Source: an uncultured Candidatus Saccharibacteria bacterium
GTDB lineage: Bacteria > Patescibacteriota > Minisyncoccia > Phycocordibacterales > UBA2100
Length of the DNA stretch: 64,000 nucleotides
Assembly: GCA_964654205.1 (NCBI GenBank)
Contig: CAZZHR010000002.1
Span: 65,800-129,799, forward strand
Direction of reading: 5' to 3'
Shown here: piece after piece, positions 5,393-59,198 of the stretch
How positions within the stretch are numbered: the stretch's first letter is position 1
Layout: every line of letters begins with the position of its first letter
The notes under the pieces: model-generated
Database searches by the model: none
What the model was told of the DNA's origin: nothing
What the model saw: the letters and a program-made list of their open reading frames with translations, nothing else
Position numbers and translations under genes: made by a program

Positions 5393-5884
5393 TCACAGTT
5401 GCGTGTCGATGCTCGCGATTCGGCGCGCATGGCGTTCATCACCGGAAAAAGGGGCATCGAGCCAATCTTTGACGGCTTTCTTTGCATCGTCTATAGAGAG
5501 GAATCGGGCACCGAGGGAAAGTGCGTTCGCGTTGTTGTGCTCGCGCGTCGAGACTATCATGTTGAATGTCTTCCCTGCCGCATCGGTCTGTGTCGTGACG
5601 CCGCCGTAGTACACAACAGCGCGAACCCCCTTGAATCGGTTTGCGACGATGGCTTCACCTTGTCCCGAACCCCCCAAGATTACTGCTCTGCTGTCGAATC
5701 CACCCGCAACGTCGGCTGAAAGCTTCCGCGCAGCTCCGGCAACGATGCCGGGATAGTCGTCGGCCGCATCGTACGTGGATGCTCCGCAATCTTCTACCTC
5801 GTAGCCAAGCTCGTCTCGTACAAATGCCACGAGCGTATTTTTCAATTCGAACCCCGCGTGGTCTGCGGCGAAATAGACCTTCAT
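5393..5884 (-). CDS. rpiB: Ribose-5-phosphate isomerase B
   Basis: 'MKVYFAADHAGFELK...' is a canonical RpiB/LacAB N-terminus. Start trimmed to MKVYF. Confidence 0.85.
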   Translation of the reverse strand: MKVYFAADHAGFELKNTLVAFVRDELGYEVEDCGASTYDAADDYPGIVAGAARKLSADVAGGFDSRAVILGGSGQGEAIVANRFKGVRAVVYYGGVTTQTDAAGKTFNMIVSTREHNNANALSLGARFLSIDDAKKAVKDWLDAPFSGDERHARRIASIDTQL

Positions 5885-5885
5885 A

Positions 5886-6905
5886 CTACAGTCGCTTCGC
5901 GACTTCACTCACATGCTCGACGAGCGTGTGCACATATCCCATCTCGTTGTCGTACCACGCGAGCACCTTCACGAGCGTGCCATCTACAACACGAGTCATC
6001 GAGAGGTCGGCGATAGAGCCAAATGGCAGTCCAAGGATGTCGCTCGAGACAAGCGGTTCTTCGCTCACAGCGAAGACTCGCTTCCACCTGTCGCTCTGTG
6101 CCGCTGCCTTCAGGGTGGCGTTCACTTCTTCGGCGCTCGTCGCGCGCTTGGCAACAAAAGTGACATCGACGAGAGAGCCCGCGGGTACGGGCACGCGCAC
6201 CGATACGCCGTCGAACTTTCCCGCAAGCTGCGGATATGCAAGCGCAGTCGCCTTCGCAGCACCGGTCGAGGTCGGCACCATATTGAGCGCAGCAGCACGG
6301 CTTTCGCGGAGATCTTTAGACTTGCCGCCATCTACGAGTGCCTGTGATGCGGTGTATGCGTGCGTCGTATTGAGAATCGCTCGCTCGATGCCTATCGCTT
6401 CATCCAAGATGCCCACGAGGGGTGATGCGGCGTTGGTTGTGCAGGAGGCATTCGATGAAATGTCACACGTGCCCTGGCCGGGCAGGCCGAATTTCGATTC
6501 GTTCGCCCCGATGAGTATGGTCTCAAGCCCATCGCCTTTCCCAGGTGCAGAGATGACGACTTTCTTTGCACCCGCGGTGATGTGTCCGCGCGCTTTTTCA
6601 GCATCGGTGAAGAAACCTGTCGATTCGACGACAATGTCGATGCCGAGGTCTTTCCATGGGAGTTTTTCAGGCTCTTTCTCTGCAGTTATACGCACGTTCC
6701 TCCCCCCTATCACGAGCCCGCCATCGCCCACTGCGACTTCGAATTTCGCCTTTCCATAGACAGAATCGTAGGTGAGGAGATACGCGAGGCTCTCCGCGGG
6801 GGTGAGGTCGTTGACCGCGACGAGTTCGAGGCCAGGCCTATCGTGTATCGCCCGCGCGAACCCCCTGCCAATCCTGCCAAATCCATTGATTGCAATTTTT
6901 GCCAT
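5886..6905 (-). CDS. gap: Glyceraldehyde-3-phosphate dehydrogenase
   Basis: 'MAKIAINGFGRIGR' NAD-binding N-terminus, catalytic 'ASCTTN', 'WYDNE'. The ORF-track N-terminal extension (85 aa) was removed. Confidence 0.9.
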   Translation of the reverse strand: MAKIAINGFGRIGRGFARAIHDRPGLELVAVNDLTPAESLAYLLTYDSVYGKAKFEVAVGDGGLVIGGRNVRITAEKEPEKLPWKDLGIDIVVESTGFFTDAEKARGHITAGAKKVVISAPGKGDGLETILIGANESKFGLPGQGTCDISSNASCTTNAASPLVGILDEAIGIERAILNTTHAYTASQALVDGGKSKDLRESRAAALNMVPTSTGAAKATALAYPQLAGKFDGVSVRVPVPAGSLVDVTFVAKRATSAEEVNATLKAAAQSDRWKRVFAVSEEPLVSSDILGLPFGSIADLSMTRVVDGTLVKVLAWYDNEMGYVHTLVEHVSEVAKRL

Positions 6906-7875: not shown

Positions 7876-9141
7876 TCAATTTTCAGGTGTGGTGGTCGCT
7901 TGCTGCACTTGTTCGCTCTCTGTAGCCACTGGCTCGGTAGTTGTCGCTGGGATTTCTATCTCCGTACTTCCTGCTTCGGTATTCGTGCTTCCCATTCCAC
8001 TCTCCGTACTCCCCCCTTCGTTCCCTCCGCTCTCATTCGACGCTTCTTCATTCATACCTCCTATTTCGTCTCCTTGTTCTTCTTGGACTTCTTCTTGGGC
8101 AGGCGTGCTCGTTGCCGAAATCGTGTCGCTCGACGCTTCTTCATTCGTACTTCCTCCTTCTCCTGCTGGACTTTCAACGTTCACATTTTCACTTTCAACC
8201 TGCGGCGGAGCCGCCGGCCTCACATTCCCCGCCTCGCTCACTTCGCCACCCGGATTCGCAGCATCACCCACGAGCACGATGCGGCGCACTGTTATCACTG
8301 CACCGCCTGGGTCTGTCGCGCTGTATTCAATCGAGTGCGCAGTCGTCGTCGAGGTATCGATGCCAGTCCATGTCGCTTTCTCGACGCCGTTGATGCGCAT
8401 ATACACGCCCGCGTTGGTCTGGTATGGATCGACGAGTACCGCGCCGAGGTCTGCGTAGCTCGCACCGAGCGGAATACGCGCCGGATTGTTGCCGAGGAGC
8501 TGCAGACCTATCTTGAGCCCGCTCGCGCTCGTACTTCCTGCTTCGTTACTCGTACTTCCGTTTCCGCTTCCATCTGCGGGACCAAAGACCGCGGCCGCTG
8601 CGGCCACCTGCGGCTGGACGACAGGGGTGTAGCCGGGGAGCGTCTCGGTGCTGTCATCGAGGAATTTGCCGATAAGGCCGCCGTACGACGTCGCTACGGT
8701 GAGCTGCGTCACTGCGCTCCGCGCGTTCTCTTGTGTCTTGCTCAGCCGCGAAGCCTCGCGTTCTATCACTTGCCTGAGCTGCTGCGTCACGTACAGGCCG
8801 AGGTCGCGATACTCGCCGAGGTCTGTCTTCGAGACCTGCATCGTTACTTTTTTGATTACGTCCTTCCAGACGTACTCGTCGACATCTATCGTGTGGAATT
8901 CGTACTCTACGAAATAGTCGTTCTCGTCTTCGGTGACCGCGGTGATGACAGCACGCGGGCTGTAGCTCGAGAGGTCCTTGCCGACGAGGTAGGTGTTGTC
9001 CACGGTGAGCACTTCATGCTGCTGCGAGTAGATGGCCTCCGGATTCGTCGCCGCAAAGACCCCCGTGCCGCCTAGAATCAGGATGCCGAGTGCCACCGGC
9101 ACGGCATTGTGATACTGAAAGAAGTGAAGAAGTGGGGTCAT
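7876..9141 (-). CDS. Hypothetical membrane-anchored secreted protein with acidic/low-complexity C-terminal tail
   Basis: N-terminal TM 'VPVALGILILGGTGVFAA', a possible Ig-like segment ('HSIEYSATDPGGAVITV'), and an E/S/T/G-rich tail. The antisense ORFs 7774..9075 and 7889..8458 are low-complexity artefacts. Confidence 0.45.
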   Translation of the reverse strand: MTPLLHFFQYHNAVPVALGILILGGTGVFAATNPEAIYSQQHEVLTVDNTYLVGKDLSSYSPRAVITAVTEDENDYFVEYEFHTIDVDEYVWKDVIKKVTMQVSKTDLGEYRDLGLYVTQQLRQVIEREASRLSKTQENARSAVTQLTVATSYGGLIGKFLDDSTETLPGYTPVVQPQVAAAAAVFGPADGSGNGSTSNEAGSTSASGLKIGLQLLGNNPARIPLGASYADLGAVLVDPYQTNAGVYMRINGVEKATWTGIDTSTTTAHSIEYSATDPGGAVITVRRIVLVGDAANPGGEVSEAGNVRPAAPPQVESENVNVESPAGEGGSTNEEASSDTISATSTPAQEEVQEEQGDEIGGMNEEASNESGGNEGGSTESGMGSTNTEAGSTEIEIPATTTEPVATESEQVQQATTTPEN

Positions 9142-9171
9142 AGGTGAGAGGTTAGAGTTGATAGTTTTTAG
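9141..9171. repeat. Direct repeat copy 1 (taggtgagaggttagagtt..tagtttttag)
   Basis: Matches 9532..9562 (taggtgcgaggttagagttttt-agtttttag). An inverted partial copy 'aaaacctctaacct' lies at 9600..9613. Confidence 0.7.
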
Positions 9172-9598
9172 TTGATAAGGGTGTACGCAACTTCCCGATA
9201 ATCGCCGTAAGCATTCGCTGTACTTCGTCGAGCAATTCGATGGATTTGGAGAAATCTATACTGGGAAAGAGCCGTTGCGCCGCGAGAAGCTGTGTTTCCA
9301 GCTCCGCGGCTGAACCAGCCGAGACGCATAAGAATTGCGCGTAATCCTTCCTTGTCCCCCTCTTTGTACCCTCGGCTATGTTTGAGGGGATTGATATTGC
9401 GGCGCGCCGCATCTGGCTCATCAGACCAAACTGCTCCGACTGTGGGAGTTTCGCGGTATCGCGGTACATCGTTTCGACAAGACTCATAGCCCTCTGCCAC
9501 ACGACCAAATCCTTGAAAGACCGCACAGGGGTAGGTGCGAGGTTAGAGTTTTTAGTTTTTAGGTTTGAGCTGTGTGTCGTTTTCATATTTCTTTTCAC
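9152..9598 (-). CDS. Four-helix-bundle protein (TIGR02436; 23S rRNA intervening-sequence protein family)
   Basis: Characteristic 'DLVVWQRA...QFGLMSQMRRAAISIPSNIAEGTKRGTRKDYAQFLCVSAGSAAELETQLLAA'. The true start may be a GTG near 9523, just inside the upstream direct repeat. Confidence 0.8.
   Translation of the reverse strand: MKRNMKTTHSSNLKTKNSNLAPTPVRSFKDLVVWQRAMSLVETMYRDTAKLPQSEQFGLMSQMRRAAISIPSNIAEGTKRGTRKDYAQFLCVSAGSAAELETQLLAAQRLFPSIDFSKSIELLDEVQRMLTAIIGKLRTPLSTKNYQL
9532..9562. repeat. Direct repeat copy 2 flanking the four-helix-bundle gene
   Basis: See copy 1. It also pairs with 9600..9613 to form a hairpin spanning the annotated start codon. Confidence 0.7.
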
Positions 9599-9611
9599 TA
9601 AAACCTCTAAC

Positions 9612-10112
9612 CTATAAACTCATCACTACCTTCCCAATAATGTCGACTTGTTGAACTGCTCCGAAGACGCGCCCATCGCTGCTCTTGCTGCGATTGTCAC
9701 CGAGCACAAGGTAATCTTCTGGCCCGAGTTGCATACGAAATGCTCCATTGTTCGTCCCGCCTATCATGCTTCCCGTCTCGTACCTCGTACTCTTTCCTTC
9801 GCTATCAGTGACCGTCACTCCATCTTCGCCAAGCTCTACAAGCTCACCGGGCAAGCCAATCACCCGTTTCACTTCAATCACCTCTTTCTGGTGCGGATTG
9901 CGATGCACGAGTATGTCGCCACGGCTAATGTGGAATCGGTGAGTCACCTTTTCGACGATAACAACGTCGTTCGCAGAAAACGTCGGCTCCATCGAGCCGC
10001 CAGAGACCACGTACGGACGGAAAATGAAAACCGAAGACAGCAGCGCGAGCGCAATGACAGTCGCAATCGTCTCTTTGTGCGTTCGTATCGTTGTGTGCAA
10101 TTGGTACGTCAT
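9612..10112 (-). CDS. lepB: Signal peptidase I
   Basis: 'VVSGGSMEPTF' (catalytic Ser), 'KRVIGLPGE', 'GDNRSKSSDGR' boxes. Confidence 0.85.
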   Translation of the reverse strand: MTYQLHTTIRTHKETIATVIALALLSSVFIFRPYVVSGGSMEPTFSANDVVIVEKVTHRFHISRGDILVHRNPHQKEVIEVKRVIGLPGELVELGEDGVTVTDSEGKSTRYETGSMIGGTNNGAFRMQLGPEDYLVLGDNRSKSSDGRVFGAVQQVDIIGKVVMSL

Positions 10113-10114
10113 AT

Positions 10115-13100
10115 CTAAATTTCCATCCCGAGCATGAGCGCGAGGGCTTGGACGAAGCTGTTTGATGTGGCGGCAGGGGCGGCAGAATATTTGAACGGCT
10201 GCTCCGCGAACGCGGCGTAGACCATTGTGTCGCCGCTCGTGTTGAGGAAGGTGGTTCTTAACTTGAAACCATTGGCTAGAGAATCAATGACGTCTGCGGG
10301 TGCCGACTCTTGAGACGAACCATCGGCGCCCAAAACGCCACTTATTGGATTGTAGGTGTTCCTTGTTGTATCCAACATCCACCAACTACCCGTCGTTCCA
10401 ACCGCGGGCTTAAGCATGACAAACCGCGGCTTGAAGCCGGTGTAGACGAACGGACCGTCGGTCGAGCCATTGCCGGTGTAGGAGCCAAATGCCGACATGC
10501 CGGTCGTGGAGGCAAAGAGGTACGCCGCGTACTCGCTCCCGCCACCTACGCCGCCCGGTGTGCTCGAGGAATCGGTGAGTGCGCCGTTCTCCGTAAATGC
10601 TCCGCCTCGCCCCCTGTTGATGTGCCAATTGTCGCTCGTTCCAGAGAAGTACACATCGGGGACGAGTGTGGAACCGACCCCGATGACGGGCACGGGTTCG
10701 CCATTCGCGTCGATGAAGAAGCGCCTATTGGCTTCGACCGAGAGGTCCAGGCTCGTCCCGAACTTTATCCAAAGGTCTTTGATGTCTCCCGTGAGCTTGA
10801 AGCCCGCGTCCGGTTCCGCCCCCACCGCGAAGTTGCCTCTCGTCCAGTCGATCGTGTCGTTGGTAAGCGTGGAGCCGCCCGAATTGAAGTCGCTCACATC
10901 GTTGCGGTAGACCCAGGCGGAGCCGGTGTTTAGGTCGACCGAGAAGAGGTAGTGCACCCAGCCACTCGAGGCGAGCGTCTGCGTCGAGGAGTTCAGGATC
11001 ATGTCGAAGTTGTTGGACGCGTCGAGCCCCACGACCTGGATCACCTGCGTACCCGCCGTGCGTACGATGTAGAAGCCCGTGCCGAGGTCTCCCGTCGCTG
11101 CGATCGTCTGGTTGGTGCTATCTGCGCCCGTAATGTTGACCCAAAAAGAGACAGTTAACCGTTTGCCGTCCACGACGTCTGTGAGGTTTGCACCGCGCGT
11201 GAGGTAATCGTTGGTACCGTCGAAATGCGCGGCGCCGCCTTTGTTCACATCGGCATTCGTCCCCACGGTGAAGGCGCTTGCGGTAGGCGCGGTGTCGTTC
11301 CAGTAGGTCGCGTCGTCGGCAGTCGCAGCTGTGCTGTTGAGCAATAGATAGTCAGTCGCCGGTGCAGATGTATTGGACGAGTGATAGACCGCCCAATCGC
11401 CGGAGCCCGAAGCTTGTGTGTACGAGCGGAGCATCGCGCTCCCCTGATCGGCGATCGCCACGCTTGTGGCAGAGAGCGCCGCAACCGCGGGGTTCGGAGT
11501 CGTGCCGTCGACGATACCGCTCCCGTCGGCCACCTCTCTCCAATCGGTACCGTCGAAGGCGTACACACGGAGCTCGTTGGTCGTTGAGTCCACGAATGCC
11601 ACTCTGTTGCGGCCCAGCGCCGCCATGCCCGTCGAGCCTCCACTCGATTCGATTGTGAGAGAATTGCCCACCTGAGACCAATTCGTGCCGTCGAAATCAT
11701 ACGCGCGCAGCTGCTTTGTCCCCGAGTAGTCGTAGAGGGCTACGCGCGAAGCCGAGAGCGCCGCGAGGGAAGGGAGTGTGATGCCGCTGATGTTGAGCTC
11801 GTTCCCAGTCAGAGTCCAGTTGGTGCCGTCGAAATCATACGCGCGCAAGTCGTCGTTGGTGCCGTCGATAAAGGCTATGCGGTCGGACAGGAGCCCCGCA
11901 AGCGCGGGAGATCCCACGCCCGAGATGTTGAGCTCGTTGCCGGTCAGCGACCATGTAGAGCCGTTGAAATCGTATGCGCGCAAGTCGTCATTCCCGCTGT
12001 CAATAAATGCGACACGGCTCGAAAGCATAGTTGCGAGCGAGGGCGACCCTATACCCGAGATGCTGAGTCCGCTTCCTGTGAGAGACCAATTCGACGAGCT
12101 CAGGTCGTATGCGCGCAAAGACGCATTCCCGAAATCAACATATGCCACCCTCGTCGCGGAGAGCGCGGCAAGCGCGGGAGTATTGATACCGCTTATCGTG
12201 AGGCTGTTGCTCGTCTGTGCCCAGTCTCCGCGCACCTCTTTCACGAGCATGAAGTCCGGCGCTTTACCGAGCGAATGGCTCACCGTCCTGCTCTTACCCG
12301 TCCCCTTGTACGAGACGATGTCGAACCCGGCCTCCGCCGTCTCTTTCCAGAGCCATGAGATGTAGTTCTTGCCGCTCGTGTTGACGTTGGCCGAGCTCGC
12401 GCCGGAGCCGAGGCTGAAGCCGTTGTCGTCGTACGACGTGAGCGATTCCGTGTCGTCGACATCTTCACCGGCGGTCAGATTGGAGCTGAGCCACGCCTGC
12501 ACCCCGCGCAGAGCATCGAAGAGCGCATGGTTGGTCGAAGCGTCGGTACGGTTCTTTATCCACACGAGGTCGGGGCTAAAGCCGGTAACCGTTGTGCTTG
12601 TACCCGTCTGGTAGACAGACTTTGCCGCACCCGTGCCTGCGTACGCGATCGCATCAAAATAATTCTTCGGCACCACCACATCCGGCTCGGGCAAGTTGGC
12701 GGTCGAGAGTGCTTTGAAGCCAGAGGGCGGTTCGTATCTGAAATATCCCCCCGCCGCCGAGTAGTGCGTCGTCGTAGTTGTCCCTGGCTGACCAAAGTTT
12801 ATTGAAGCGCTTGCACCCGTGTAGACGGCGAGTGATGGAAATACAGGGTCAGCTCCGCTGAGTGTGGCGGCAGCTCCTGTGCCTCCTACTGGGTCACCAC
12901 TGTTCTGCCATGTCCCGTTTTTTGAGAAGTAAATCTTCTTGTTATCCAAATCAAGCGCTACACCGACGACATCGTTCGTTGTAAACGTATTGCCGTACGC
13001 GGCATTGGTCCCTCCGTTGTACGTCGTACCATCATGCCCGTAGTAGCTGATGCCCCCATTAGCAGACGAGCCGCCGGGAAATGCGCCGAGTGTCATCGGA

Positions 13101-14242
13101 GTGAACGCTGTGGAAGTTGCAACCCCGACGAGATAAAAATTACTGCCACTACTCTGTGCACCAGCTGTCACTTCCCAATACCATTTACCACTCGTGACAC
13201 CAATAATTGAGAGTGCCGTAAGAAAATTCCCAGCACTATGAGTCATACTCAAGTTGCCTTGAGAAAGAGTCAGCGAAGAGTTTTTGTAAATCGAGTTAAG
13301 TGTCGCAAACGCGTTCGTCGGGGTGTCGATGACTTGGTCGGTTGCGTCGAGGTTGTTGGCGGTCCAGTTGTTGCCGTTGCCGGATGTGTCGGTGCCAAGC
13401 GCCGCACTGTTGCCAAAGGCGAGCTTGAAGCCATTTGTCCCATACGTGCCCGTGTACGACTTCGGCCGCCAGTATCCATTGGCGTCGTACTCGCCGAAAG
13501 AGGTGGGCGTGAGCGCCTGCCCGTCGACAAAATGTAGGTCGGAGAGGTAGACATCAATCGAGCAACATGCACCCCCTTGTTGCTGACCGATACGATTGTT
13601 CGCATTGGCGAGCGCGAATTGGTACTCAGCGTTTTGTGCGGGATAATTCGCAGCGTCAAACGCCGTAATCTGCATCCCATCGATGTACATCTTCACTCTA
13701 TTCGCTGCAGTCGCATCTGTCGTGTCCCACACAACTACGACATGCATCCATTTTGATGGATCGCGAAAAAGTGCCGAGCTGCGAAGTTCGGCGGAAGTAG
13801 CCCCGCCGAAGGCGAAACTCAGGTTGTCCGCTGCAGCGCCGCCCGCCCCGAATTCAAGCCACGAAGAATTGCTCGACGAACCATCGTAGCCGGCAACTAT
13901 CGTTTGTCTCGTCCCCAAATTCCCCCTTTTTATCCACGTAGATATCGTTCCCTTCTTACGGTCAGCGGGTGCACCGGAGAATGTCTTGCTTAGGTTTGCA
14001 CTGTCATCGTCGTTGAAGCGAGCGCTGTTCGCGATCGTGTACGCCGCCTCCGCCTGCGGGAGTGTGAGAAGCGCAAACTGCGCGCCAAACCACGCCAGCG
14101 CGACAATCGCCGCCACAACCACCCGCCACCTCCACAGCCCGTTCAAAGCGTTCAAGGAGGCGTGCAAGGGGCGCCCTTGCACATGTGCAAGGGCGCCCCT
14201 TGCGCCGGAGATTTTGAGAAACTTGGTGAAGAGATTACTCAT
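10115..14242 (-). CDS. Giant (about 1375 aa) secreted multi-domain protein: LamG-like – SPRY/B30.2 – six ~45-aa tandem repeats – LamG-like
   Basis: N-terminal hydrophobic signal/anchor. SPRY signature 'SGKWYWEVT...NDVVGVALDLDNKKIYFSKNG'. Two concanavalin-A-like (LamG) segments. Six tandem repeats 'LRAYDFDGTNW.LTGNELNISG'. The first ~15 codons overlap the REP-like palindrome, so the true start may be an alternative codon downstream. Confidence 0.75.
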   Translation of the reverse strand: MSNLFTKFLKISGARGALAHVQGRPLHASLNALNGLWRWRVVVAAIVALAWFGAQFALLTLPQAEAAYTIANSARFNDDDSANLSKTFSGAPADRKKGTISTWIKRGNLGTRQTIVAGYDGSSSNSSWLEFGAGGAAADNLSFAFGGATSAELRSSALFRDPSKWMHVVVVWDTTDATAANRVKMYIDGMQITAFDAANYPAQNAEYQFALANANNRIGQQQGGACCSIDVYLSDLHFVDGQALTPTSFGEYDANGYWRPKSYTGTYGTNGFKLAFGNSAALGTDTSGNGNNWTANNLDATDQVIDTPTNAFATLNSIYKNSSLTLSQGNLSMTHSAGNFLTALSIIGVTSGKWYWEVTAGAQSSGSNFYLVGVATSTAFTPMTLGAFPGGSSANGGISYYGHDGTTYNGGTNAAYGNTFTTNDVVGVALDLDNKKIYFSKNGTWQNSGDPVGGTGAAATLSGADPVFPSLAVYTGASASINFGQPGTTTTTHYSAAGGYFRYEPPSGFKALSTANLPEPDVVVPKNYFDAIAYAGTGAAKSVYQTGTSTTVTGFSPDLVWIKNRTDASTNHALFDALRGVQAWLSSNLTAGEDVDDTESLTSYDDNGFSLGSGASSANVNTSGKNYISWLWKETAEAGFDIVSYKGTGKSRTVSHSLGKAPDFMLVKEVRGDWAQTSNSLTISGINTPALAALSATRVAYVDFGNASLRAYDLSSSNWSLTGSGLSISGIGSPSLATMLSSRVAFIDSGNDDLRAYDFNGSTWSLTGNELNISGVGSPALAGLLSDRIAFIDGTNDDLRAYDFDGTNWTLTGNELNISGITLPSLAALSASRVALYDYSGTKQLRAYDFDGTNWSQVGNSLTIESSGGSTGMAALGRNRVAFVDSTTNELRVYAFDGTDWREVADGSGIVDGTTPNPAVAALSATSVAIADQGSAMLRSYTQASGSGDWAVYHSSNTSAPATDYLLLNSTAATADDATYWNDTAPTASAFTVGTNADVNKGGAAHFDGTNDYLTRGANLTDVVDGKRLTVSFWVNITGADSTNQTIAATGDLGTGFYIVRTAGTQVIQVVGLDASNNFDMILNSSTQTLASSGWVHYLFSVDLNTGSAWVYRNDVSDFNSGGSTLTNDTIDWTRGNFAVGAEPDAGFKLTGDIKDLWIKFGTSLDLSVEANRRFFIDANGEPVPVIGVGSTLVPDVYFSGTSDNWHINRGRGGAFTENGALTDSSSTPGGVGGGSEYAAYLFASTTGMSAFGSYTGNGSTDGPFVYTGFKPRFVMLKPAVGTTGSWWMLDTTRNTYNPISGVLGADGSSQESAPADVIDSLANGFKLRTTFLNTSGDTMVYAAFAEQPFKYSAAPAATSNSFVQALALMLGMEI
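11540..12250. repeat. Intragenic tandem DNA repeats, period ~135-138 bp (5-6 units)
   Basis: Recurring strings 'gtgccgtcgaaatcatacgcgcgca(g/a)' at about 11685, 11823, 11960 and 12095, encoding the 45-aa protein repeats. Confidence 0.65.
14164..14203. repeat. 40-bp perfect REP-like palindrome gcaaggggcgcccttgcaca|tgtgcaagggcgccccttgc
   Basis: Arms verified base by base. It sits 3' of the transposase gene and overlaps the annotated 5' end of the giant LamG/SPRY ORF. Confidence 0.8.
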
Positions 14243-14901
14243 ACTTCGTCGAGCATTAATTCTCGGACTGTCGATTTCCGTGCGACGATGTCGTCGAAAG
14301 CGTCTTCAACGAAACGCTGGTACTCGCGCGCACTCTTGAAGTGCTCAAGGATTGTTGCCGTATCACACAATCCCCCGGTATCTGGCGAGAGGTACTCGGC
14401 ATAGCTACTATGCGGCCACTTTCGAGCGTCTCGCACAAGCTTCGCCACTTGGGGATTCACATGAATATAGGCCGAGAGGTGTTTGAGTTGCGTATCGTCT
14501 ACCACATGCACGGCCTTGATGCGATCCTGAAATACATGTCCCACATGATCGTACTTGCGATTGAAGTACATCGAGTAGCTCGTCAGTAGTTTCAGAAAAA
14601 GTTTACTAATCGATACATCTTTGTTCTGTCGTATGAGAAAATGGAAATGATTAGGCATAAGACAGTACACAGCAATCGAGAATGCATCTCTTTCGAATGG
14701 CTCGATGCGAATCTGGACGCGCTTCCCGCCGGTGTGCAAGGGCGCCCCTTGCACATCGCGACCGAGAGAGCGCATAAGTCGGTCTAGGAAAACTCGTGCA
14801 TCCTCATCATCTCGAAGGATGTCCATCTTGCCATTGCCGCGGCTGAAGAGGTGGTACCACTCTCCTGTCGAGAACTCTTTGTAGTCGCGTGAATTTGTCA
14901 T
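14239..14901 (-). CDS. tnpA: IS200/IS605-family Y1 HUH transposase (RAYT-like, Y1_Tnp)
   Basis: 'YHLFSRGNGK', HUH motif 'MPNHFHFLI', and C-terminal 'FQDRIKAVHVVDDTQLKHLSAYIHVNP...WPHSSY', the Y1 transposase signature. It carries a ~21-aa in-frame insertion encoded by the REP half-site. Confidence 0.65.
   Translation of the reverse strand: MTNSRDYKEFSTGEWYHLFSRGNGKMDILRDDEDARVFLDRLMRSLGRDVQGAPLHTGGKRVQIRIEPFERDAFSIAVYCLMPNHFHFLIRQNKDVSISKLFLKLLTSYSMYFNRKYDHVGHVFQDRIKAVHVVDDTQLKHLSAYIHVNPQVAKLVRDARKWPHSSYAEYLSPDTGGLCDTATILEHFKSAREYQRFVEDAFDDIVARKSTVRELMLDEV
14731..14756. repeat. Half-copy of the REP-like element (ggtgtgcaagggcgccccttgcacat) inside the transposase CDS
   Basis: Identical to one arm plus the centre of the 14164..14203 palindrome. 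It encodes 'RDVQGAPLHTGG' in frame. Confidence 0.75.
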
Positions 14902-14911
14902 ACTCGATTAG

Positions 14912-17900
14912 TCATCTAAAGCCCGTGGCAGCCGCGCCGAATACGACGAGCGAGCTGGTCGCATTGGTCGCGACAAATGAGACGAGGTCACATTGGTTGG
15001 CCGTCGTGGTGAGTGTCGGTGCGCTTCCACCCTGCCAGCGCACGACCGCTGGCCAGGTCAGTGTGCGGCTTCCCGTGCCGTCTTGGCACACCACGAGACG
15101 GAGGATTTGCCCCGCGATGAAATTGGAGAATGTAATCGTGCGGTTGCCGCCGAGTGTCACCTTCTGCTGGTTGCCTTCAAGCCAGTTGATAGCCACGGTC
15201 GCGCCGTCGGAGAGACTCCTTTCCACCGTGGTGATAGCGCCACCCGCACCCACCGCAAATTTCGCAAACGGCGTCGATGTACCCACACCCACGTTGCCGT
15301 TGGCGTTGATGACAAAGAGGGACTGCGCTGTGGTGGAAGCGACCTGTATGAAGTTGGTCGAGCTATCCTGCGTCTCTATCGTGAGCTTGGCCGCAGGGGT
15401 CGTGGTGCCGATTCCTGCCGCTGTCTCTACATAGAGCTTGCCCGCTCCAGTCGGCGACGTGGGGCAGCCGGATGCGCAGACAAGGAGGTTGTCGTCGGAG
15501 AGCAGAATGTTTTTGTTGGACGTGTGTATCGTAAGGTCGCCAGTCGAGTCCACTTGGAGCGAGGCGACCGTGGAATCATTGTACGAAATCGCTACCTGAG
15601 GATTCGCCGCTGCAGCCGTCACCGAGAACTTGCGGTACGGCGATGTGGTGCCGACACCGAAGAATCCGGCACTCGTGGCGCGCATCACCTCGGTGAGCGC
15701 GCCACTTTGCAGTGTCGAGAACACGAGGTCGCCCTTCCCGAGCCCGCCGAAGTTCTGTTGCAAGATGCTCGTGATTGCAGAAGTCGTCGTACCCGTGCCG
15801 GTGACATCGAGCGCGCGGAATGAGAGCCGCGATGCGGTCGATGTCGCGCTCGCCGCATTGGTGAGGTAGAGCTGGTCGGCGGTCGCGCCGGAAGATGTGT
15901 TGTAGACATCGAGCTTCGTGCCCGGCGTCGTCGTACCGATGCCGACATTGCCCGTGCTGGTGATGCGCATTCGCTCTTGGCTCGACTCATATCCACCAGT
16001 CCTAAACTGAATACTGTCGGAGCCGCCTGATGCAACATTCCCGTTGGTAAAGAGCACCAGACTAGTATTCGAACCGAAACTCGTGTTTCCGCCGAGACCG
16101 TATCCGACACCAGACCCGTACGCACGGAAGTAGCCTGTCGCAGTATCGCTATGTACAGTGTATGTGCTCTGACCATTGCTATTTGCATTCGTCACCGTGA
16201 CCCCGTCGACGCTCGCTACATTGCTGTACACAGTGAGTTTTGTAGACGGAGTCGTCGTCCCTACCCCCACGTTGCCGGTGTTTGTCACCGCAAAGAGCGA
16301 GCTCGTCGCGCTCGCGGTCGAGCTCGCTATCTCGAAGAGCATCGTATTGGTCTCGCCCGACAGTGCGTGCACTGAGAGCTTAGCCCACGGCGACGACGTG
16401 CCGATACCGAAGCGCGCATTGACCGTATCCCACGTGAGCGTACTCGACGCCGCCATCACGCCGCCGTAGTTGAATTGTATGTTGCCGTTGCCGCCTGCCG
16501 GAGCCGAGCCGCCGGATGCGAGGAGGGAGCCGGAGAAGTATGTGTAGACTGCCGAACCATCGACAGCTGTACCCGTTGAAAGCACCGCTGCTTCGAGATA
16601 GTCGGATGTTCCATTCATGTCGACAATGGTGGTTACTTGCGCCGCATCTGCACCACCCGATCGATAGGGACCGTTTGCTATCGCGACACCGTTCTTACGG
16701 ACAGCTGCCTGACAGTTGTTTGTGGTATTTGTACATCCAACAGACGCGACAACGATATACTTGCCGGCTACCGTAGGTGTGAAGCGGTTGGTCGTTAGGT
16801 CAAAATTGTTGTTGGTATCGTAAGTTTCAGTCGTCCAATCGACCACAAGTACCGTATCGCTCACAGTGGTTGTCGCCGACCCATTGCGATGCACATGGAA
16901 CGCTACCGTAGAAGAAGCGGTTCCAACCGTGCGGTTCGTGTAGACCTTGACCGCGAATCCGCCTGCGCCGCCTGCGCCGCCTGCGCCTCCAGTGCCCGCA
17001 TTTCCAGCGCTACCCCCGGAGCCAACGGTGAAATAGAAAGTCCCCGTCGGACTGCCTACAAGCTCGTACGCGTATCCTCCGCCTCCACCTCCGCCTCCAC
17101 TCCATACGTTGTTGAGATCATTGATTCCGCCGCCAGCCCCTCCTCCTCCGAACGCGTTGCCTGCGCCGCCTGCTGCCGTAGTACCCGCTCCGCCACCCCC
17201 ACCGCGGGCACCATTGCCCCCCGCTCCTCCCACTGCGTACAGATCTTGCGTCTCCCCACCATCCGCATCAATACCAAGCGTGAGTCCGCCTGCACCACCA
17301 ACGAGATTTACTTCGCCACCGGAGCCAGAACCGCCAGATGCCGCAGGCCCATTGGAGCCAGACCCACCGCCTCCGCCCGTCGCACTTAAGTGCGGAGAGG
17401 AGCATGCGACAGAATTGCTTCCGAAGCATGTCGTACCTCCTACGCCACCATTGCCGCCGTTGCCTCCACCGCCACCCCCTCCACCGCCGCCCCAAACCTC
17501 CACTTCTATATATGACGTATCGCTCGGGAGCGTGAGCGTGCCACCGGAGAAGCTCGGTGCGCTGCCGGGGTCTCCGGTGAAGACCACCGACGAGGTTCCC
17601 ACAGTGGAAGTCGCGTATGTTCCTATGAGCGTGTTGCCACCACCTCCGCCTCCACTCGAGCCGCTCCCCGTCCCCGCACACTGTCCGCTCGGGAGCAGGA
17701 AGCAGCCGCTCGTGAGTTGGACGCCACCCGCAAAGGTGGATGTTGCCGAGCCGGTGATATTGAGGAGTGTTGATTGAATGCCGCCAGAGAATGTTGTGGT
17801 GGAAGGCGACCCAAACGTCGCTGCGCCGGTGGATGCCGAGAACGAGAGCGCGGCTACCGTAGAAGTCGACGAGTGCGTCGAGGTGGCGAGGTAGAAGGTG

Positions 17901-20900
17901 CTGCCGATGTTGCGGAGTGTCCAGAGATTGCTGCCGAGCCCGTCCGAGAGCGCGAGCTGCGGACCTGTCGAGCTCGCGACCGTAAGAATATGGTACGGTG
18001 TCGTCGTACCGATGCCGAACGTACCGTTGAAATAGCCGAGACCGTTGTCGAGAATGCGGAAGCGCGTCGTCGAGGCGGAGTCGAAGAATTCCGTGAGTAT
18101 GCCCGTGCCCGTCCCAGATCCCTGCACTGAGAGCTTAGCCCACGGTGACGTGGTGCCGATTCCGACGTTGCCCGTCGAACCCTGAATGAGCATTCTCGTC
18201 GCGTAACTCCCGGCCGTTGCGTTGGCCTTGAAATGGAGGTCGCCATTGTTGCCCGTCTGCCCTATCTCCGCCCAGCCCGTGCCAGTACCCGCGCCGCCGG
18301 TCGTGAATATCATGCTGCCGACGTTGCCTGTACCGGCTCTGTTGAGGAAGAGTCGGAAGTCGCCCGACGTGTCAAAGGCCGCACTCGTACCGAAGACGTC
18401 GAGCTTACTCCCCGGCGTCGTCGTACCGATTCCCACGCTGCCGGTGCTCTTTACCGCCAAAAGGTCACCGCCGGATCCGCTCGATGAGTTGAGCTGCAAG
18501 AGGTCCGCGCTGGAACCGGTATGAAGACTTCCAACGATGACGGGCTTCGCGATGTCGTGCTCGTTGTAGATGTTGAAGATACCTGTAAAGGTCGGGGAGG
18601 TTTTGCCAAAACCGATCTCCCCCGTGGGACTGACGATGAAGGCGTTGACGCCGTCGGTCCTGTTCTGGAAGAAGAGCGCCCCAGCAGGAGTATTGCCGCT
18701 ATCCCCCGCGAGGAAGCCCCATTTCTTACCGCCGGAGTCCGTATTCTGGAGATTGAACCACGGATCGCTGCCGCTCACATGGAACTTCGCGTCGCTTGAA
18801 GCTGCGCCCACGCCGAGCAGACCCTGCACGAGTAGGTTACCTGTCGTCGTCGCGCCGCCTGAGATCGTGAGGCCGCCCGCCTGTGTGCCGTCGCCGATGG
18901 TGGAACTTGCTGTGACACCGAGGCCGCCAGTTACAGCGAGTGTGGTCCACGGACTTACGTTGCCGATACCGACACTTCCACCACCGCTTTGAAGGACGAG
19001 ATTATTCCATGCACCGGCACCGCTGCTCTGTGCGCTGAGTCCAAAATAAGTATTGCCCGTGCTCGCGCCCGACGCTACAAAGAGCACCGAACCGGCTGAA
19101 CCAGAGACCCAATCGCTCGTCGTTATCGCAAGTTGTGAAGGCGCATTACCGCCAGTAATTTGCAACTTACCGTTGGTCGGACTCGCCGTGCCGATACCGA
19201 AGTTGCCGCTGATGCGGTCGACGAAGACGAGCGGCGAGGAGGTACCGACGGTAAAGAGCGAGGTCGATGGCGGCGTCGATGTGCCGACGGCGAGACCGCC
19301 GGAGGCGATTGTGCTCGTCGCCGTCGTCGAAGTGGCGACGAAATATGAAGCGTCGACGAATGACGTAAAGCGAGCATTGCCACTAACGTGAAGCTTATAG
19401 GTGGGAGAGGTATTACCTATACCTACAGAGCCAGCTGTATTGAGGAACAATAAGTCTGTCGCCGCGGCGCCCGTGCTGATGGAAAATCCAGAGCTATCGT
19501 TACCACTGATTCCGACTTTCCATTCTGGAGTCGTACCGCTTCTGACAAAGCTGACATTCGGTGCCACATTTCCGTTTATCAAAATTCCTTGATACGTCGT
19601 TCCTGCAGTCACATGGAGTGGCTGCTGCGGATTTGTTGTTCCAATTCCAACCCGACCGCTTGGGTTCCAAATGCCGGAGCCCGGGAAGAATGCGGTGCCA
19701 GAGACAGAGAGCGCGGTTGAGGACGCATACGGGAACGTGGACGCTGCTGTGGTAGAAGTCGCAGTGAAGATTGGCGCGGTGATGGTGTTGTATGCGGTGA
19801 GTGCGCCGCGCAGGAGTGAGCTGCCCGCGACTGAGAGGTTTCCGCTTGAGTCGATGGTCGTCGTCGCGCTGCCGCCGAAGTACGCAGTGCCAAAGTTGGA
19901 GAAGTTAGTACTCGACGCATTCCCCGAGAATATCTGGAGCGCCGTCCAGTTGTTGGAGACACTTGTGTCCACGGAGCCCCCACCGCCCGTGATACAAGCA
20001 CCGTCTACGGCAAAGCATCCGTCGGCGAGGTTTATTCCATTGGCAAATGTGGTAGTAGCCGAGCCGGTAAAGGTAATATCGCTCAGCGTAGTCCCAGAAA
20101 GGGTACCGCCCGTAATCGTCGAGTCGGAGATATCGACGCTGCTGAGCTGATCGATTTTGTTTGTGTGCGCGACCGTCTGATACACATTGGTAATACTTGC
20201 CGACTGCGCTGTAGAGACACCGGCGACGAGGCTTGTGAGTCGCTGTTCCACGGCTGCGATCCGCGTATCGAGGTCGGCATCCGTGATGCCGCCGACAGAT
20301 GCAACTATGCGCTCGGTCTCGACGATACGTTCAACGACTCGTTCGTTTGTCACCACAGTCGATGTGCTCACAACAACAGGCGTTTGCTGCGATTGCGCTA
20401 CGATAACCTGTGCGCGTTCATACGGATCCATCGTGTCGATGAATCCCGCATCGAGCGGTGTAAGTGCGAGCGAGTTCGTCGCGTCACTCGGGAACACGAT
20501 GTTGTAGACGAACGTGTCGACGCTCGTGTTGACTGCCTTCGCGATGGTGCGCAGCGCATCAGGGAAGAAAGAAAGTGTCGCGCTCGATACTTGTGCGAGC
20601 GCGACCTCGGGATTCTCAACCGCATAGTACGTCGCATCACTCGCCGCGCGCACCGCGCGCGTCGCCACTTCATCAACTCGTACGAGCGACTGCGCGACGC
20701 TCGCCGCCATCTCGCGCGTAGTCTCCGCTGCAAACCGCGCATAGGCTGGGTCGACAAACGCATACGTGCCAAATGTCATGGTGAACGCAACGAGCATCGC
20801 GACAAACTTCTGCAGAAACTCCGTCGCGGGAGAAATCGTGTACACCGGCACGTGCACATGTGCGTGACTCAAAGTACGAGCAACCGCCTCGTGCACGCCC

Positions 20901-21349: not shown

Positions 21350-21649
21350 GAGCGATGATGCCTGTGGCCGGACGCACGATTTATCTAATATTCTACTACT
21401 CTTTTCGCCAATTGGACGTGTATCGGACACTATTACGTGTGGACAAGCCTAAGCAGAATTTGTACCGGACATTTTTTACATTTTTTCCCACAAGTTCGTA
21501 TCAACGCACAAAAAATTCTCCGTTTTTTTGAAAAAAAGCCTCTTCACTACAACCTCTCACCTCTTACCTACCCCCCTCCTCCCGGCCGACTCGGGCATCC
21601 GAGGAGCGACGTAGAGCGGTATTCCGCGCGTGTGTGGCGCAGAAAATGA

Positions 21650-59136: not shown

Positions 59137-59198
59137 GCACGGTATTATGCGACACGAATCAATGAGAGAGTGTTTGACTATTGAATCGCTGTGGATTC

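What the first reader, a model, noticed from the sequence alone, without database searches (positions are those of the whole stretch)
9141..9615. Four-helix-bundle (23S-IVS-type) gene as a cassette bounded by ~30-bp direct repeats and a hairpin, outside any rRNA
TIGR02436-type four-helix-bundle genes are classically found inside 23S rRNA intervening sequences. Here one lies between lepB and a secreted-protein gene, precisely bracketed by direct repeats 'taggtg.gaggttagagtt...tagtttttag' (9141-9171, 9532-9562). A third inverted partial copy (9600-9613) forms a hairpin with the second repeat across the annotated start. This looks like the footprint of an IVS-like or miniature mobile element inserted into a protein-coding intergenic region.
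Basis: partly seen in the sequence, partly recalled or inferred. Interest (0 to 1): 0.6.

Follow-up and report, generated by a model that had tools for sequence, protein, structure and literature searches.

The report
IVS-like four-helix-bundle cassette in an operon
A small four-helix-bundle gene, flanked by inverted arrays of 7-base repeats, sits exactly between the stop codon of one ordinary gene and the start codon of the next; it has the same build as the cassettes known from inside 23S ribosomal RNA genes, so such cassettes also colonise protein-coding operons.

Summary
Two 31-nt direct repeats (28/31 identical) and a 17-nt inverted copy lie at the stated coordinates, around a minus-strand TIGR02436/PF05635 gene between lepB and an Ig-like secreted-protein gene. 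No rRNA is in the window.

The direct repeats are not the cassette's boundaries or a target-site footprint. The boundaries are inverted heptamer-repeat arms: a 5' arm at 9596-9616 and a 3' arm at 9141-9171. These arms close the whole 470-nt insert (9142-9611) into one stem. The insert fits flush between the lepB stop and the next gene's ATG. The repeat at 9532-9562 is an extra, lineage-specific copy of the 3' arm.

This build is family-wide: 97 of 134 non-rRNA homologues carry such arms, against 1 of 294 control positions. It matches the Coxiella 23S IVS, which has heptamer repeats and an RNase III-cut stem.

The lepB|Ig-like site is empty in two relatives and holds related cassettes in at least four other lineages. 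Elsewhere, near-identical arm-to-arm units sit in unrelated contexts, and one is inverted in place.

Best reading: a long-resident IVS-type selfish cassette in an mRNA operon. RNase III excision of its RNA is inferred, not shown. How it moves is unknown.

The parts
9612..10112 (-). lepB (signal peptidase I), the upstream co-directional gene. Its stop codon TAG (9612-9614) is the first triplet of the cassette's 5' arm.
   Evidence: PF10502, E = 9e-33. Its C-terminus ...SL* is conserved in relatives that lack the cassette.
9142..9611 (-). The whole insert (470 nt), measured against syntenic empty sites. It runs from the base after the lepB stop codon to the base before the ATG of the next gene.
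   Evidence: In L083, the lepB stop is followed by 5 nt and then the ATG. In L084/L086, stop and start overlap as ATGA.
9596..9616 (-). 5' arm. On the gene strand it reads TATAGGTTAGAGGTTTTAGTG, about 2.5 heptamer units (nAGGTTn). It can pair with either of the two 3'-type arms.
   Evidence: Inverted repeats I1-I4. Closing stem of the MFE and centroid folds. Duplex energy with the terminal arm is -22.8 kcal/mol, with the internal arm -20.3. Only 9 of 3962 random windows pair as well.
9563..9595 (-). Loop/leader between the 5' arm and the internal arm. It contains the in-frame ATG (9584-9586) used by the public gene call (144 aa).
   Evidence: Sequence. L001 gene call of 144 aa. The arm-to-ATG spacing resembles that in L170 and L172.
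9532..9562 (-). Internal extra copy of the 3'-type arm (direct-repeat copy 2). It forms the local hairpin with the 5' arm. It is read in frame if translation starts at ATG 9586, and is leader sequence if translation starts at GTG 9524-9526.
   Evidence: period-7 array at 9547-9566. Absent from same-site cassettes in L170 and L172. Analogous extra arms occur in L173, L174, L175 and L071.
9152..9586 (-). Four-helix-bundle protein gene (TIGR02436 / PF05635). The conserved core SFKDLVVWQ... begins at 9518-9520. The stop codon is TAA at 9152-9154.
   Evidence: Related cassettes at different sites give dN/dS of 0.07.
9141..9171 (-). Terminal 3' arm (direct-repeat copy 1). On the gene strand it reads CTAAAAACTATCAACTCTAACCTCTCACCTA, about 4.4 heptamer units. 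It overlaps the last 6 codons and the stop of the 4HB ORF. Its last base is the A of the next gene's ATG.
   Evidence: period-7 array at 9156-9177.
7876..9141 (-). Downstream co-directional gene: a 421-aa secreted Ig-like (DUF5011-type) protein. In relatives it directly follows lepB.

Best explanation
The region is an IVS-type four-helix-bundle (4HB) cassette living in a protein-coding operon rather than in 23S rRNA.

The unit is 5' arm, short leader, 4HB ORF, 3' arm. The arms are inverted arrays of 7-nt repeats. It sits flush between the stop codon of lepB and the start codon of the next gene, and it is co-transcribed with them.

In the transcript, the two arms pair into a stem of about 18-25 bp that encloses the whole cassette. 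By analogy with the experimentally studied 23S IVSs, RNase III probably cuts this stem. That would release the cassette RNA and leave the flanking cistrons intact, which makes the insertion tolerable.

The 4HB protein is under strong purifying selection. As a homologue of the DGR accessory protein Avd, it most likely binds nucleic acid and serves the cassette's own maintenance or spread.

It gives the 5' arm two alternative partners: a local hairpin or the cassette-closing stem. Such three-arm variants recur in related cassettes.

The cassette has probably sat at the lepB|Ig-like site for a long time and has been cleanly lost from some relatives.

Shown here: the anatomy, the family-wide arm architecture, occupied and empty sites, the same unit in unrelated contexts, and an in-place inversion. 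Inferred only: RNase III processing, the protein's role and the mobility mechanism.
For: 1. Anatomy. The gene belongs to TIGR02436/PF05635. Arms and hairpin are confirmed. The whole-cassette MFE and centroid folds are closed by the 5' arm: terminal 3' arm stem. That duplex is -22.8 kcal/mol, matched by only 0.2% of random windows. Both 3'-type arms show period-7 arrays. No sigma-70-like promoter or terminator lies between lepB and the downstream gene.

2. Family-wide rule. 59 of 83 homologous genes in GTDB genomes have a strong upstream/downstream inverted repeat, against 1 of 294 shifted control positions. After adding metagenome loci the count is 97 of 134. Arm period is 7 in 43 cases and 8 in 35. 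Unit sequences differ by lineage while each stays complementary to its partner. 5' arms are G-rich and C-poor (G:C = 1043:298). None of 14 such loci contains rRNA.

3. Known counterpart. The Coxiella 23S IVS has a 28-bp terminal stem, tandem GACAGAT heptamers upstream of the S23p ATG, and an RNase III cut inside the stem (PMC4990558).

4. Site polymorphism. lepB directly abuts the Ig-like gene in L083 (lepB 77% and Ig-like 74% identical to the window) and in L084-86. The same site holds related cassettes in L170/171, L172, L173 and L175. Conversely, the window's gap|rpiB junction is empty where L003, L006 and L091 carry a cassette.

5. Arms co-evolve. Same-site cassettes use TAGCTTA paired with TAAGCTA, where the window uses TAGGTTA paired with TAACCTA. 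The G-to-C change in one arm is matched in the other.

6. Discrete unit. L028 and L066 share only a 432-nt arm-to-arm segment (92% identical) within 12-kb loci, and the same holds for further pairs. L123 and L131 have the cassette inverted relative to homologous flanks.

7. The protein is selected: dN/dS = 0.07.

8. Operon preference: the upstream neighbour is co-directional in 76 of 96 loci.

9. Three-arm variants occur in L174, L173, L071 and, in mirror form, L175.
Against: - No RNA data exist, so RNase III cleavage is purely an inference. No rnc gene is in the window.
- Mismatches in the arms show no excess of G:U over A:C (44 vs 39). Nothing therefore proves that selection acts on the sense RNA rather than on DNA, or that complementarity is not kept by concerted evolution of the arms.
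- The window's closing stem is weaker than in most family members (ungapped score 11, z = 4.4; 75-77% complementary). It competes with the better local hairpin (16/17).
- The whole-cassette fold is not unusually stable (z = -1.6).
- No near-identical second copy of this cassette was found anywhere, so there is no evidence that this copy is currently mobile.
- No transposase, integrase or reverse transcriptase is linked to it. No target-site duplication can be defined.
Confidence: 0.7

Rival explanations
1. One reading: a miniature mobile element whose ends are the two ~31-nt direct repeats, acting as a target-site duplication or attachment-site-like brackets, recently inserted between lepB and the next gene.
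For: The direct repeat is real and highly non-random. If translation starts at GTG 9524-9526, the repeats do bracket the conserved ORF core. Recombination between two direct arms could in principle pop out a circle carrying the ORF and one arm, leaving a solo hairpin.
Against: - The insert, measured against empty sites, runs from 9142 to 9611. Repeat copy 2 (9532-9562) is therefore internal, about 50 nt from the left end.
- Only 1 of 134 family members has a comparable direct repeat, while 97 have inverted arms.
- Same-site cassettes in L170 and L172 lack the internal copy.
- 31 nt is far longer than any usual target-site duplication, and the empty sites hold no copy of it.
- The nearest relative is only 61-68% identical, so there is no sign of recent insertion.
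Confidence: 0.08
2. The arms work at the DNA level, not the RNA level. They would be terminal inverted repeats or hairpin/cruciform substrates for a trans-acting enzyme, such as an IS200-like Y1 transposase (RAYT-like) or host recombination. Any RNA stem would be incidental.
For: - Arm mismatches show no G:U over A:C bias.
- Arm-to-arm units occur in unrelated contexts, and one cassette is inverted in place. These are DNA events with break-points at the arms.
- A Y1_Tnp ORF lies 5 kb away at 14239-14901, and Y1_Tnp genes lie near the homologous locus in L087/L088.
- Y1 transposases act on single-strand hairpins, insert without target duplication and are strand-specific. That would fit the G-rich/C-poor polarity.
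Against: - IS200/IS605 and REP systems use a separate small hairpin at each end or many dispersed REP copies. Here the two ends pair with each other, and the arm core occurs nowhere else in 64 kb.
- The one experimentally studied member (the Coxiella IVS) is processed as RNA in exactly this stem (PMC4990558).
- The preference for a co-directional upstream gene (76/96) and the flush stop-to-start placement fit a transcript-level constraint.
- This rival is not exclusive of the best explanation. It concerns how the cassette moves rather than how it is tolerated.
Confidence: 0.25
3. It is an ordinary, vertically inherited host gene. The flanking complementary repeats would be a private regulatory structure for translation or mRNA stability, with no selfish or mobile character. 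Its absence from some relatives would be simple gene loss.
For: - The cassette appears old at this site: five lineages are occupied, and the nearest homologues are at the same site.
- The ORF is under purifying selection.
- No mobility gene is attached.
Against: - Losses are exact to the base, restoring stop-start adjacency.
- The same kind of unit sits flush in quite different operons: gap|rpiB, upstream of prfA, rpsG|fusA, between tRNA genes, and in 23S and 16S rRNA (10.1101/2024.02.27.582315).
- 92%-identical units lie in unrelated contexts while host flanks are about 80% identical or unrelated.
- One cassette is inverted in place.
Confidence: 0.1
4. The gene is the Avd accessory protein of a diversity-generating retroelement, and the repeats are template/variable-repeat remnants.
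For: There is a weak bAvd Pfam hit (E = 4e-4, below the cutoff). PF05635 is homologous to Avd (PMC10053308). DGRs are common in Patescibacteria (own knowledge).
Against: - No reverse transcriptase appears among the window ORFs scanned (about 48 of the 58 ORFs of 70 aa or more listed).
- No TR/VR-like repeat pair lies near the gene.
- The repeats are 31 nt of heptamer array, not ~100-nt A-mutated pairs.
- The neighbours are lepB and an Ig-like gene in conserved synteny.
Confidence: 0.02

Closest known systems
23S rRNA intervening sequences that carry an S23p / four-helix-bundle ORF (Coxiella burnetii, Leptospira, Brucella, Xanthomonas; PMC4990558)
   Same: - Same protein family (PF05635/TIGR02436).
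- Same size class: 428-444 nt in Coxiella, 470 nt here.
- Terminal complementary sequences close the whole element into one stem.
- Tandem heptamer repeats lie upstream of the ATG.
- Sporadic presence/absence among relatives.
- No mobility gene.
   Different: - The host site is the intergenic junction of an mRNA operon (lepB|Ig-like gene), not helix 25 or 45 of 23S rRNA.
- The ORF appears selected rather than decaying. dN/dS is 0.07 in related non-rRNA cassettes, whereas the Coxiella ORF is reported to be degenerating.
- An extra internal arm gives an alternative local hairpin.
- RNase III cleavage has not been shown here.
Avd, the accessory variability determinant of diversity-generating retroelements (PDB 4DWL; Pfam bAvd PF22296)
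   Same: Homologous four-helix-bundle fold. The solved relative 2GSC is a pentamer, like Avd. Avd binds a reverse transcriptase and its RNA, which suggests a nucleic-acid-handling role for cassette proteins.
   Different: There is no reverse transcriptase, template repeat or variable repeat nearby. The bAvd score is below threshold (21 bits against 40). The heptamer arms have no DGR counterpart.
Foldback-type elements and MITEs (terminal inverted repeats built from short tandem repeats; non-autonomous)
   Same: The ends are inverted arrays of short tandem units, and no transposase lies inside. Units are discrete, and one is seen inverted in place (L123/L131).
   Different: - It carries a conserved, selected ORF.
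- No target-site duplication can be seen.
- Copy number is one per arm type per genome region. Paralogous cassettes in one locus have different arms.
- Placement is flush between a stop and a start codon.
REP/BIME elements mobilised by RAYT (Y1, IS200-like) transposases
   Same: Intergenic palindromic sequence, with a Y1_Tnp gene in the neighbourhood (14239-14901).
   Different: The arm motif is not dispersed: there is no other copy in 64 kb. The two halves are about 430 nt apart and enclose a gene. No link has been tested.

Membership tests
TIGR02436 / PF05635 four-helix-bundle (23S_rRNA_IVP) protein family | Score above the curated cutoffs of the family models | tested here: met
   TIGR02436: 111.2 bits, cutoff 24. 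PF05635: 109.5 bits, cutoff 33.8. 2GSC: E = 1.7e-22. The conserved SIPSNIAEG motif is present.
S23p-type 23S rRNA intervening sequence (IVS) | Located inside a 23S rRNA gene (helix 25 or 45) | tested here: not met
   No Rfam family reaches its gathering score in the 64-kb window. The flanks are lepB and an Ig-like protein gene.
S23p-type 23S rRNA intervening sequence (IVS) | Terminal complementary sequences that close the element, ORF included, into one stem | tested here: met
   Arms 9597-9622 and 9133-9172 are 75-77% complementary over 24-26 nt. They form the closing stem of the MFE and centroid folds. Duplex energy is -22.8 kcal/mol, in the top 0.2% of random windows.
S23p-type 23S rRNA intervening sequence (IVS) | Tandem heptamer repeats in the 5' part, upstream of the ORF start (as in Coxiella, GACAGAT x3) | tested here: met
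   The 5' arm reads TAGGTTA GAGGTTT TAG. TRF finds period-7 arrays in both 3'-type arms. In the family, arm period is 7 in 43 cases and 8 in 35.
S23p-type 23S rRNA intervening sequence (IVS) | Excised from the primary transcript by RNase III without ligation | not testable with these tools
   No transcript data are available. No rnc gene is among the window ORFs scanned. The rest of the genome was not available.
S23p-type 23S rRNA intervening sequence (IVS) | Sporadic distribution: present or absent at the same site in related organisms | tested here: met
   The site is empty in L083 and L084-86, and occupied in the window, L170/171, L172, L173 and L175.
Diversity-generating retroelement (Avd component) | Adjacent reverse transcriptase and a template/variable repeat pair | tested here: not met
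   No RT domain appears in the window ORFs scanned (about 48 of the 58 ORFs of 70 aa or more listed). No long imperfect repeat pair lies near the gene.
DNA transposon / MITE | Terminal inverted repeats plus a target-site duplication, and multiple near-identical copies | tested here: inconclusive
   Inverted termini are present (TAGGT...ACCTA). No duplication is definable at the junctions. No second copy exists in the window, and no relative above 68% identity exists anywhere searched. Other family members do show the same unit in unrelated contexts.
REP/RAYT system | Many dispersed copies of the palindrome in the same genome, associated with a Y1 transposase | tested here: not met
   The arm core occurs only within the cassette in 64 kb. 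A Y1_Tnp ORF is present at 14239-14901, but no link was found. The whole genome was not available.

The most novel reading that the evidence does not exclude
The ORF-bearing 23S rRNA IVSs would be only the rRNA-resident minority of a large, so far undescribed class of mobile gene cassettes. Each would consist of an Avd-like four-helix-bundle gene enclosed by inverted heptamer or octamer arrays. The class would colonise highly transcribed operons (rRNA, tRNA, ribosomal-protein, glycolytic and secretion genes), inserting flush between a stop and a start codon. It would be excised from transcripts at the arms and would move, invert and be lost at the DNA level through those same arms. The Avd-like protein would act as the cassette's own mobility or maintenance factor, possibly by recruiting a reverse transcriptase or a hairpin-specific enzyme in trans. 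Three-arm forms like the one in this window would be functional states, either an RNA switch or an excision-competent intermediate.
Probability: 0.25. Interest if true: 0.85.

Novelty: new variant of a known kind. Interest (0 to 1): 0.6.

Why it matters
IVSs were found in 23S rRNA over 30 years ago, and their origin, mobility and the role of their conserved ORF remain unexplained (PMC4990558).

The same architecture surrounds most non-rRNA members of this very large gene family. There are thousands of homologues, several per genome in Acidobacteria and Patescibacteria. Clean occupied/empty pairs, in-place inversion and identical units in unrelated contexts can all be read directly from public assemblies. 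That turns the IVS problem into a tractable comparative and experimental one.

It also bears on annotation. These genes have been read as functional partners of whatever operon they sit in; for example, they were reported as cas-associated genes lying between cmr3 and cmr2 (PMC3936711). They may simply be passengers. Their arm-encoded N- and C-terminal tails and start codons are easily miscalled, as with the 144/148-aa call here.

I found no paper in the searchable library that describes the arms around non-rRNA copies. Much of the older subscription literature could not be read, so I cannot claim priority.

Tried and rejected
1. Chance or low complexity was rejected: z = 14, and the 12-mer core is unique to the cassette.
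2. Homology of the direct repeats beyond 31 nt is not significant, so there is no evidence for a larger duplicated segment or a decayed second ORF.
3. The G:U versus A:C mismatch test for sense-RNA selection gave 44 vs 39 and is uninformative.
4. A second copy of this cassette was sought in GTDB genomes, JGI metagenomes, IMG/VR and the 5.8-billion-cluster protein search. The best hits were 60%, 60%, none and 61-68% identical.
5. A DGR was rejected: no RT and no TR/VR.
6. The gene matches no PADLOC defence model.
7. An exact look-up of the 148-aa GTG-start ORF failed because the public gene call uses the ATG start. The locus was recovered through lepB.
8. Organism names could not be obtained from cluster look-up. 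Patescibacteria (Paceibacteria-like) is inferred from the names on homologues.
9. Ralph & McClelland 1993 could not be read.
10. Duplex-energy comparison across same-site cassettes was too noisy to add anything. The repeat finder output is used instead.
11. Paralogous cassettes within single loci are diverged and carry different arms, so no within-contig recent duplication was seen.
Full report
**What is in the sequence**

All genes in this neighbourhood are on the minus strand. In gene order they are:
- a 1375-aa DUF7483/SPRY protein (10115-14242);
- lepB (9612-10112, PF10502);
- a TIGR02436/PF05635 four-helix-bundle (4HB) gene (9152-9586 from the ATG, or to 9598 from an upstream GTG);
- a 421-aa Ig-like secreted protein (7876-9141).

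The closest solved structure to the 4HB protein is the pentameric XCC0516 (2GSC, E = 1.7e-22). The window has no rRNA or tRNA. The same locus exists on a Logan contig (L001), where the gene caller chose the ATG start (144 aa).

- The direct repeats are 9141-9171 and 9532-9562, 28/31 identical. The score is 14 sd above shuffles.
- The homology stops sharply at 31 nt.
- The 12-mer core occurs nowhere else in 64 kb.
- The inverted copy at 9597-9613 pairs 16/17 with 9540-9556 across a 40-nt loop that holds the ATG.
- The same 9597-9622 segment is also complementary to the other repeat copy at 9133-9172 (I1-I3).
- When the whole cassette RNA is folded, that long-range pair is the closing stem of both the MFE and the centroid structure.
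- The duplex energies are -22.8 kcal/mol (long-range) and -20.3 (local). Only 9 of 3962 random windows from this sequence pair as well with the 5' arm.
- TRF finds period-7 arrays in both 3'-type copies.

**What the repeats are**

I fetched 80 genome loci and 80 metagenome loci encoding relatives of the protein. I compared the 150 nt upstream of each gene with the 150 nt downstream.
- The genes are flanked by inverted, not direct, repeats.
- Each arm is a tandem array of 7- or 8-nt units. Examples are (AGGGACTA)n, (CAGGGAA)n, (CAGTACC)n, (TAGAAAA)n, (GGGCAAA)n, (AGGTGTT)n and (TAGCTTA)n, with the reverse complement downstream.
- 59 of 83 instances reach an ungapped score of at least 14, against 1 of 294 positions shifted by 1.5-2.5 kb. 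With the metagenome loci the count is 97 of 134.
- Among the arms, 43 have period 7 and 35 have period 8. Median length is 26 nt.
- The upstream arm is consistently G-rich and C-poor on the gene strand (G:C = 1043:298).
- None of 14 such loci contains rRNA.
- A direct repeat as strong as the window's is exceptional: 1 other case in 134.

On the gene strand, the window's cassette therefore reads as follows:
- 5' arm TATAGGTTAGAGGTTTTAGTG (9616-9596);
- a 33-nt loop/leader containing the ATG;
- an extra 3'-type arm (9562-9532);
- the ORF;
- the terminal 3' arm CTAAAAACTATCAACTCTAACCTCTCACCTA (9171-9141).

**Link to the known IVS**

The experimentally studied Coxiella 23S IVS is 428-444 nt long and encodes a protein of this family. 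It is closed by a 28-bp stem formed by its termini. It has three tandem GACAGAT heptamers just upstream of the ATG, and their number varies between strains. RNase III cuts it inside the stem, at the first heptamer (PMC4990558). The window's unit has the same parts in the same order.

The family is known to occur outside rRNA, for example inside cas operons (PMC3936711). It is also known in both 16S and 23S insertions of CPR bacteria (10.1101/2024.02.27.582315). In ten full-text searches I found no description of the arms around non-rRNA copies. The original Leptospira paper could not be read.

**Occupied and empty sites**

Homologues of the downstream Ig-like protein led to syntenic loci.
- In L083 (lepB 77% and Ig-like 74% identical to the window), lepB is followed by 5 nt and then the ATG.
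- In L084-86 the stop and start overlap as ATGA.
- Against these, the window carries exactly 470 extra bases (9142-9611).
- The lepB stop codon TAG is the first triplet of the 5' arm. The last base of the 3' arm is the A of the downstream ATG.
- If the ancestral junction was an ATGA overlap as in L084, the insert ends are TAGGT...ACCTA with no target duplication. This point is an inference.

The site is not occupied only in the window. The best hits to the window's 4HB protein among 5.8 billion clusters are only 61-68% identical. Of the five I looked up, four sit at the same place:
- after lepB and before the Ig-like gene in L170, L172 and L175;
- before the Ig-like gene in L171 and L173, whose contigs are cut upstream.

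The fifth, L174, is in a different context.

Their arms use the unit TAGCTTA (5') and TAAGCTA (3'), where the window has TAGGTTA and TAACCTA. A change in one arm is thus matched in the other.

lepB identities between the window and those loci (57-68%) are similar to the 4HB identities (61-67%). The most economical reading is therefore an old cassette inherited with its site and lost cleanly at least twice. Repeated gain at a preferred site is not excluded. I put this at roughly 60:40.

The reverse situation also occurs. The window's gap|rpiB junction (TAG-t-ATG, about 5884-5890) is empty where L003, L006 and L091 carry a cassette flush between the same two genes. Other insertion sites seen are upstream of prfA (L012, L092, L098), between rpsG and fusA (L099), and between tRNA genes (L100).

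**Evidence that such cassettes are discrete DNA units**

- In Acidobacteriaceae loci, L028 and L066 share a single 432-nt segment at 92% identity and nothing else in 12 kb. The same holds for L066/L115, L018/L028 and L028/L040.
- In the alignment, homology starts at the first unit of the 5' arm and ends with the 3' arm.
- Copies at different sites are as similar to each other as copies at the same site in different genomes. Shared host flanks are only about 80% identical.
- L123 and L131 have homologous flanks in opposite orientation but the 421-nt cassette in the same orientation. The cassette is therefore inverted in place or was re-inserted.
- The ORF is under purifying selection: dN/dS = 0.07 for L028/L066 and L028/L115.
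- The upstream neighbour is co-directional in 76 of 96 loci.
- The window has no sigma-70-like promoter or terminator between lepB and the downstream gene.

**The internal repeat copy**

Same-site cassettes in L170 and L172 have no internal arm. The copy at 9532-9562 therefore arose later, within the window's lineage.

It is not a one-off kind of event:
- L174 has the same layout: 5' arm 404-430, internal 3'-type arm 452-474, terminal arm 836-862.
- L173 has a 3'-type arm just upstream of its ATG (36-58, matching 418-440).
- The unrelated Terracidiphilus locus L071 has the same arrangement.
- L175 shows the mirror image: an extra 5'-type arm at 598-614 forms a hairpin with the 3' arm.

In L173 and L174 the start codon lies 7-8 nt after the internal arm. 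By analogy, the window's start could be GTG 9524-9526 (...CACCTACCCCT-GTG). On the other hand, the ATG at 9584-9586 sits at the usual distance from the 5' arm, and the internal copy is in frame and open. The start is therefore unresolved.

The internal copy may act as an RNA switch, since local hairpin and closing stem are mutually exclusive. It may mark an excision-competent state, since two direct arms could recombine. Or it may simply be a by-product of turnover in tandem arrays. My data cannot decide between these.

**Mechanism, and what is not shown**

The best-supported account is a selfish, IVS-type cassette tolerated in a polycistronic transcript. Its arms would form a double-stranded stem that RNase III removes, as demonstrated for the rRNA-borne members.

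Consistent with life between translated genes, the arms are enriched in stop codons. On average 1.59 reading frames are stopped per 5' arm, against 0.93 in shuffles. All three frames are stopped in 23% of arms, against 3% expected.

The following are not shown:
- any RNA processing here;
- an rnc gene (none among the window ORFs scanned);
- selection on RNA rather than DNA (G:U versus A:C mismatches are 44 vs 39);
- the mobility mechanism.

A DNA-level role for the arms, possibly with a trans-acting Y1 transposase like the one at 14239-14901, is a live and partly compatible rival. A DGR is excluded. No PADLOC model matches.

**Verdict**

As a single locus, it is a new variant of a known kind. 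The family-wide architecture and its DNA dynamics are the more interesting result and deserve a systematic census.

Noticed in passing
window 5884-5890 (gap stop TAG, t, rpiB ATG; minus strand): This junction is an empty site. In L003, L006 and L091 (Patescibacteria) a 4HB cassette with TAGTTTT-type arms sits flush between the same two genes, gap and rpiB.
   Followed up: yes
L123:2966-3382 versus L131:2964-3382: The flanking 3 kb on each side are homologous in reverse orientation (86-90% identical), while the 421-nt cassette is homologous in the same orientation. The cassette is therefore inverted in place relative to its neighbours, with break-points in the arms.
   Followed up: partly
L028:5950-6381, L066:5951-6381, L115:2949-3392, L018:5942-6378: Arm-to-arm units of about 435 nt are 91-92% identical, yet lie in loci that share no other sequence. 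Copies at different sites are as similar as copies at the same site in different genomes. This implies transposition, transfer or gene conversion among cassettes.
   Followed up: partly
L099:107-469 and L100:3001-3387: These cassettes are inserted between rpsG and fusA (str operon) and between two tRNA genes. Together with the gap|rpiB and prfA sites, this suggests a preference for highly transcribed operons.
   Followed up: partly
L172:588-619: The heptamer array of the 5' arm (TAGCTTT TAGCTTG TAGCTTA CAGCTTG TAG) extends into the last codons of lepB (...VAFSL*). The arm and the host gene's C-terminus therefore overlap.
   Followed up: no
5' arms of 97 homologous loci (for example L018, L029, L081): Arms are enriched in stop codons: 1.59 frames stopped against 0.93 in shuffles, and all three frames stopped in 23% against 3%. 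Many annotated C-terminal tails of these proteins are simply translated arm (for example ...KLKTKNSKL*).
   Followed up: partly
window 14239-14901 (-): A 220-aa ORF has an IS200-like Y1 transposase domain (PF01797, E = 4e-9). It lies between two giant surface-protein genes, 5 kb from the cassette. Y1_Tnp genes also lie near the homologous region in L087/L088. No link to the cassette was established.
   Followed up: partly
window 10115-14242 and 14912-21430 (-): Two giant ORFs of 1375 and 2172 aa. The first has DUF7483 and SPRY domains plus repeated ...LRAYDF... units (DNA repeats at 11651-11982). The second has only a weak HTH_17 hit and 43-55-nt motifs recurring between 15249 and 18448.
   Followed up: no
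window 27787-28437 (-): A 216-aa ORF with a PaaX_M/Cas2-like domain (E = 1.6e-21; Cas2 E = 3e-6). Rfam scans of the window found no CRISPR array.
   Followed up: no
window 31493-31647 and 40846-41000: A 155-nt inverted repeat (72% complementary) that falls in two oppositely oriented cytidylyltransferase-like genes (30868-31686 minus, 40822-41259 plus). Both share the motif GGFDP(L/V)HIGHVRMF(K/R)EAKKLGD. They look like paralogues bracketing a polysaccharide-synthesis cluster.
   Followed up: partly
window 57928-61079 (-): A ComEA-like HHH + PKD protein lies next to a TraG/TrwB-type coupling-protein homologue. This may be part of a DNA-uptake or transfer apparatus.
   Followed up: no
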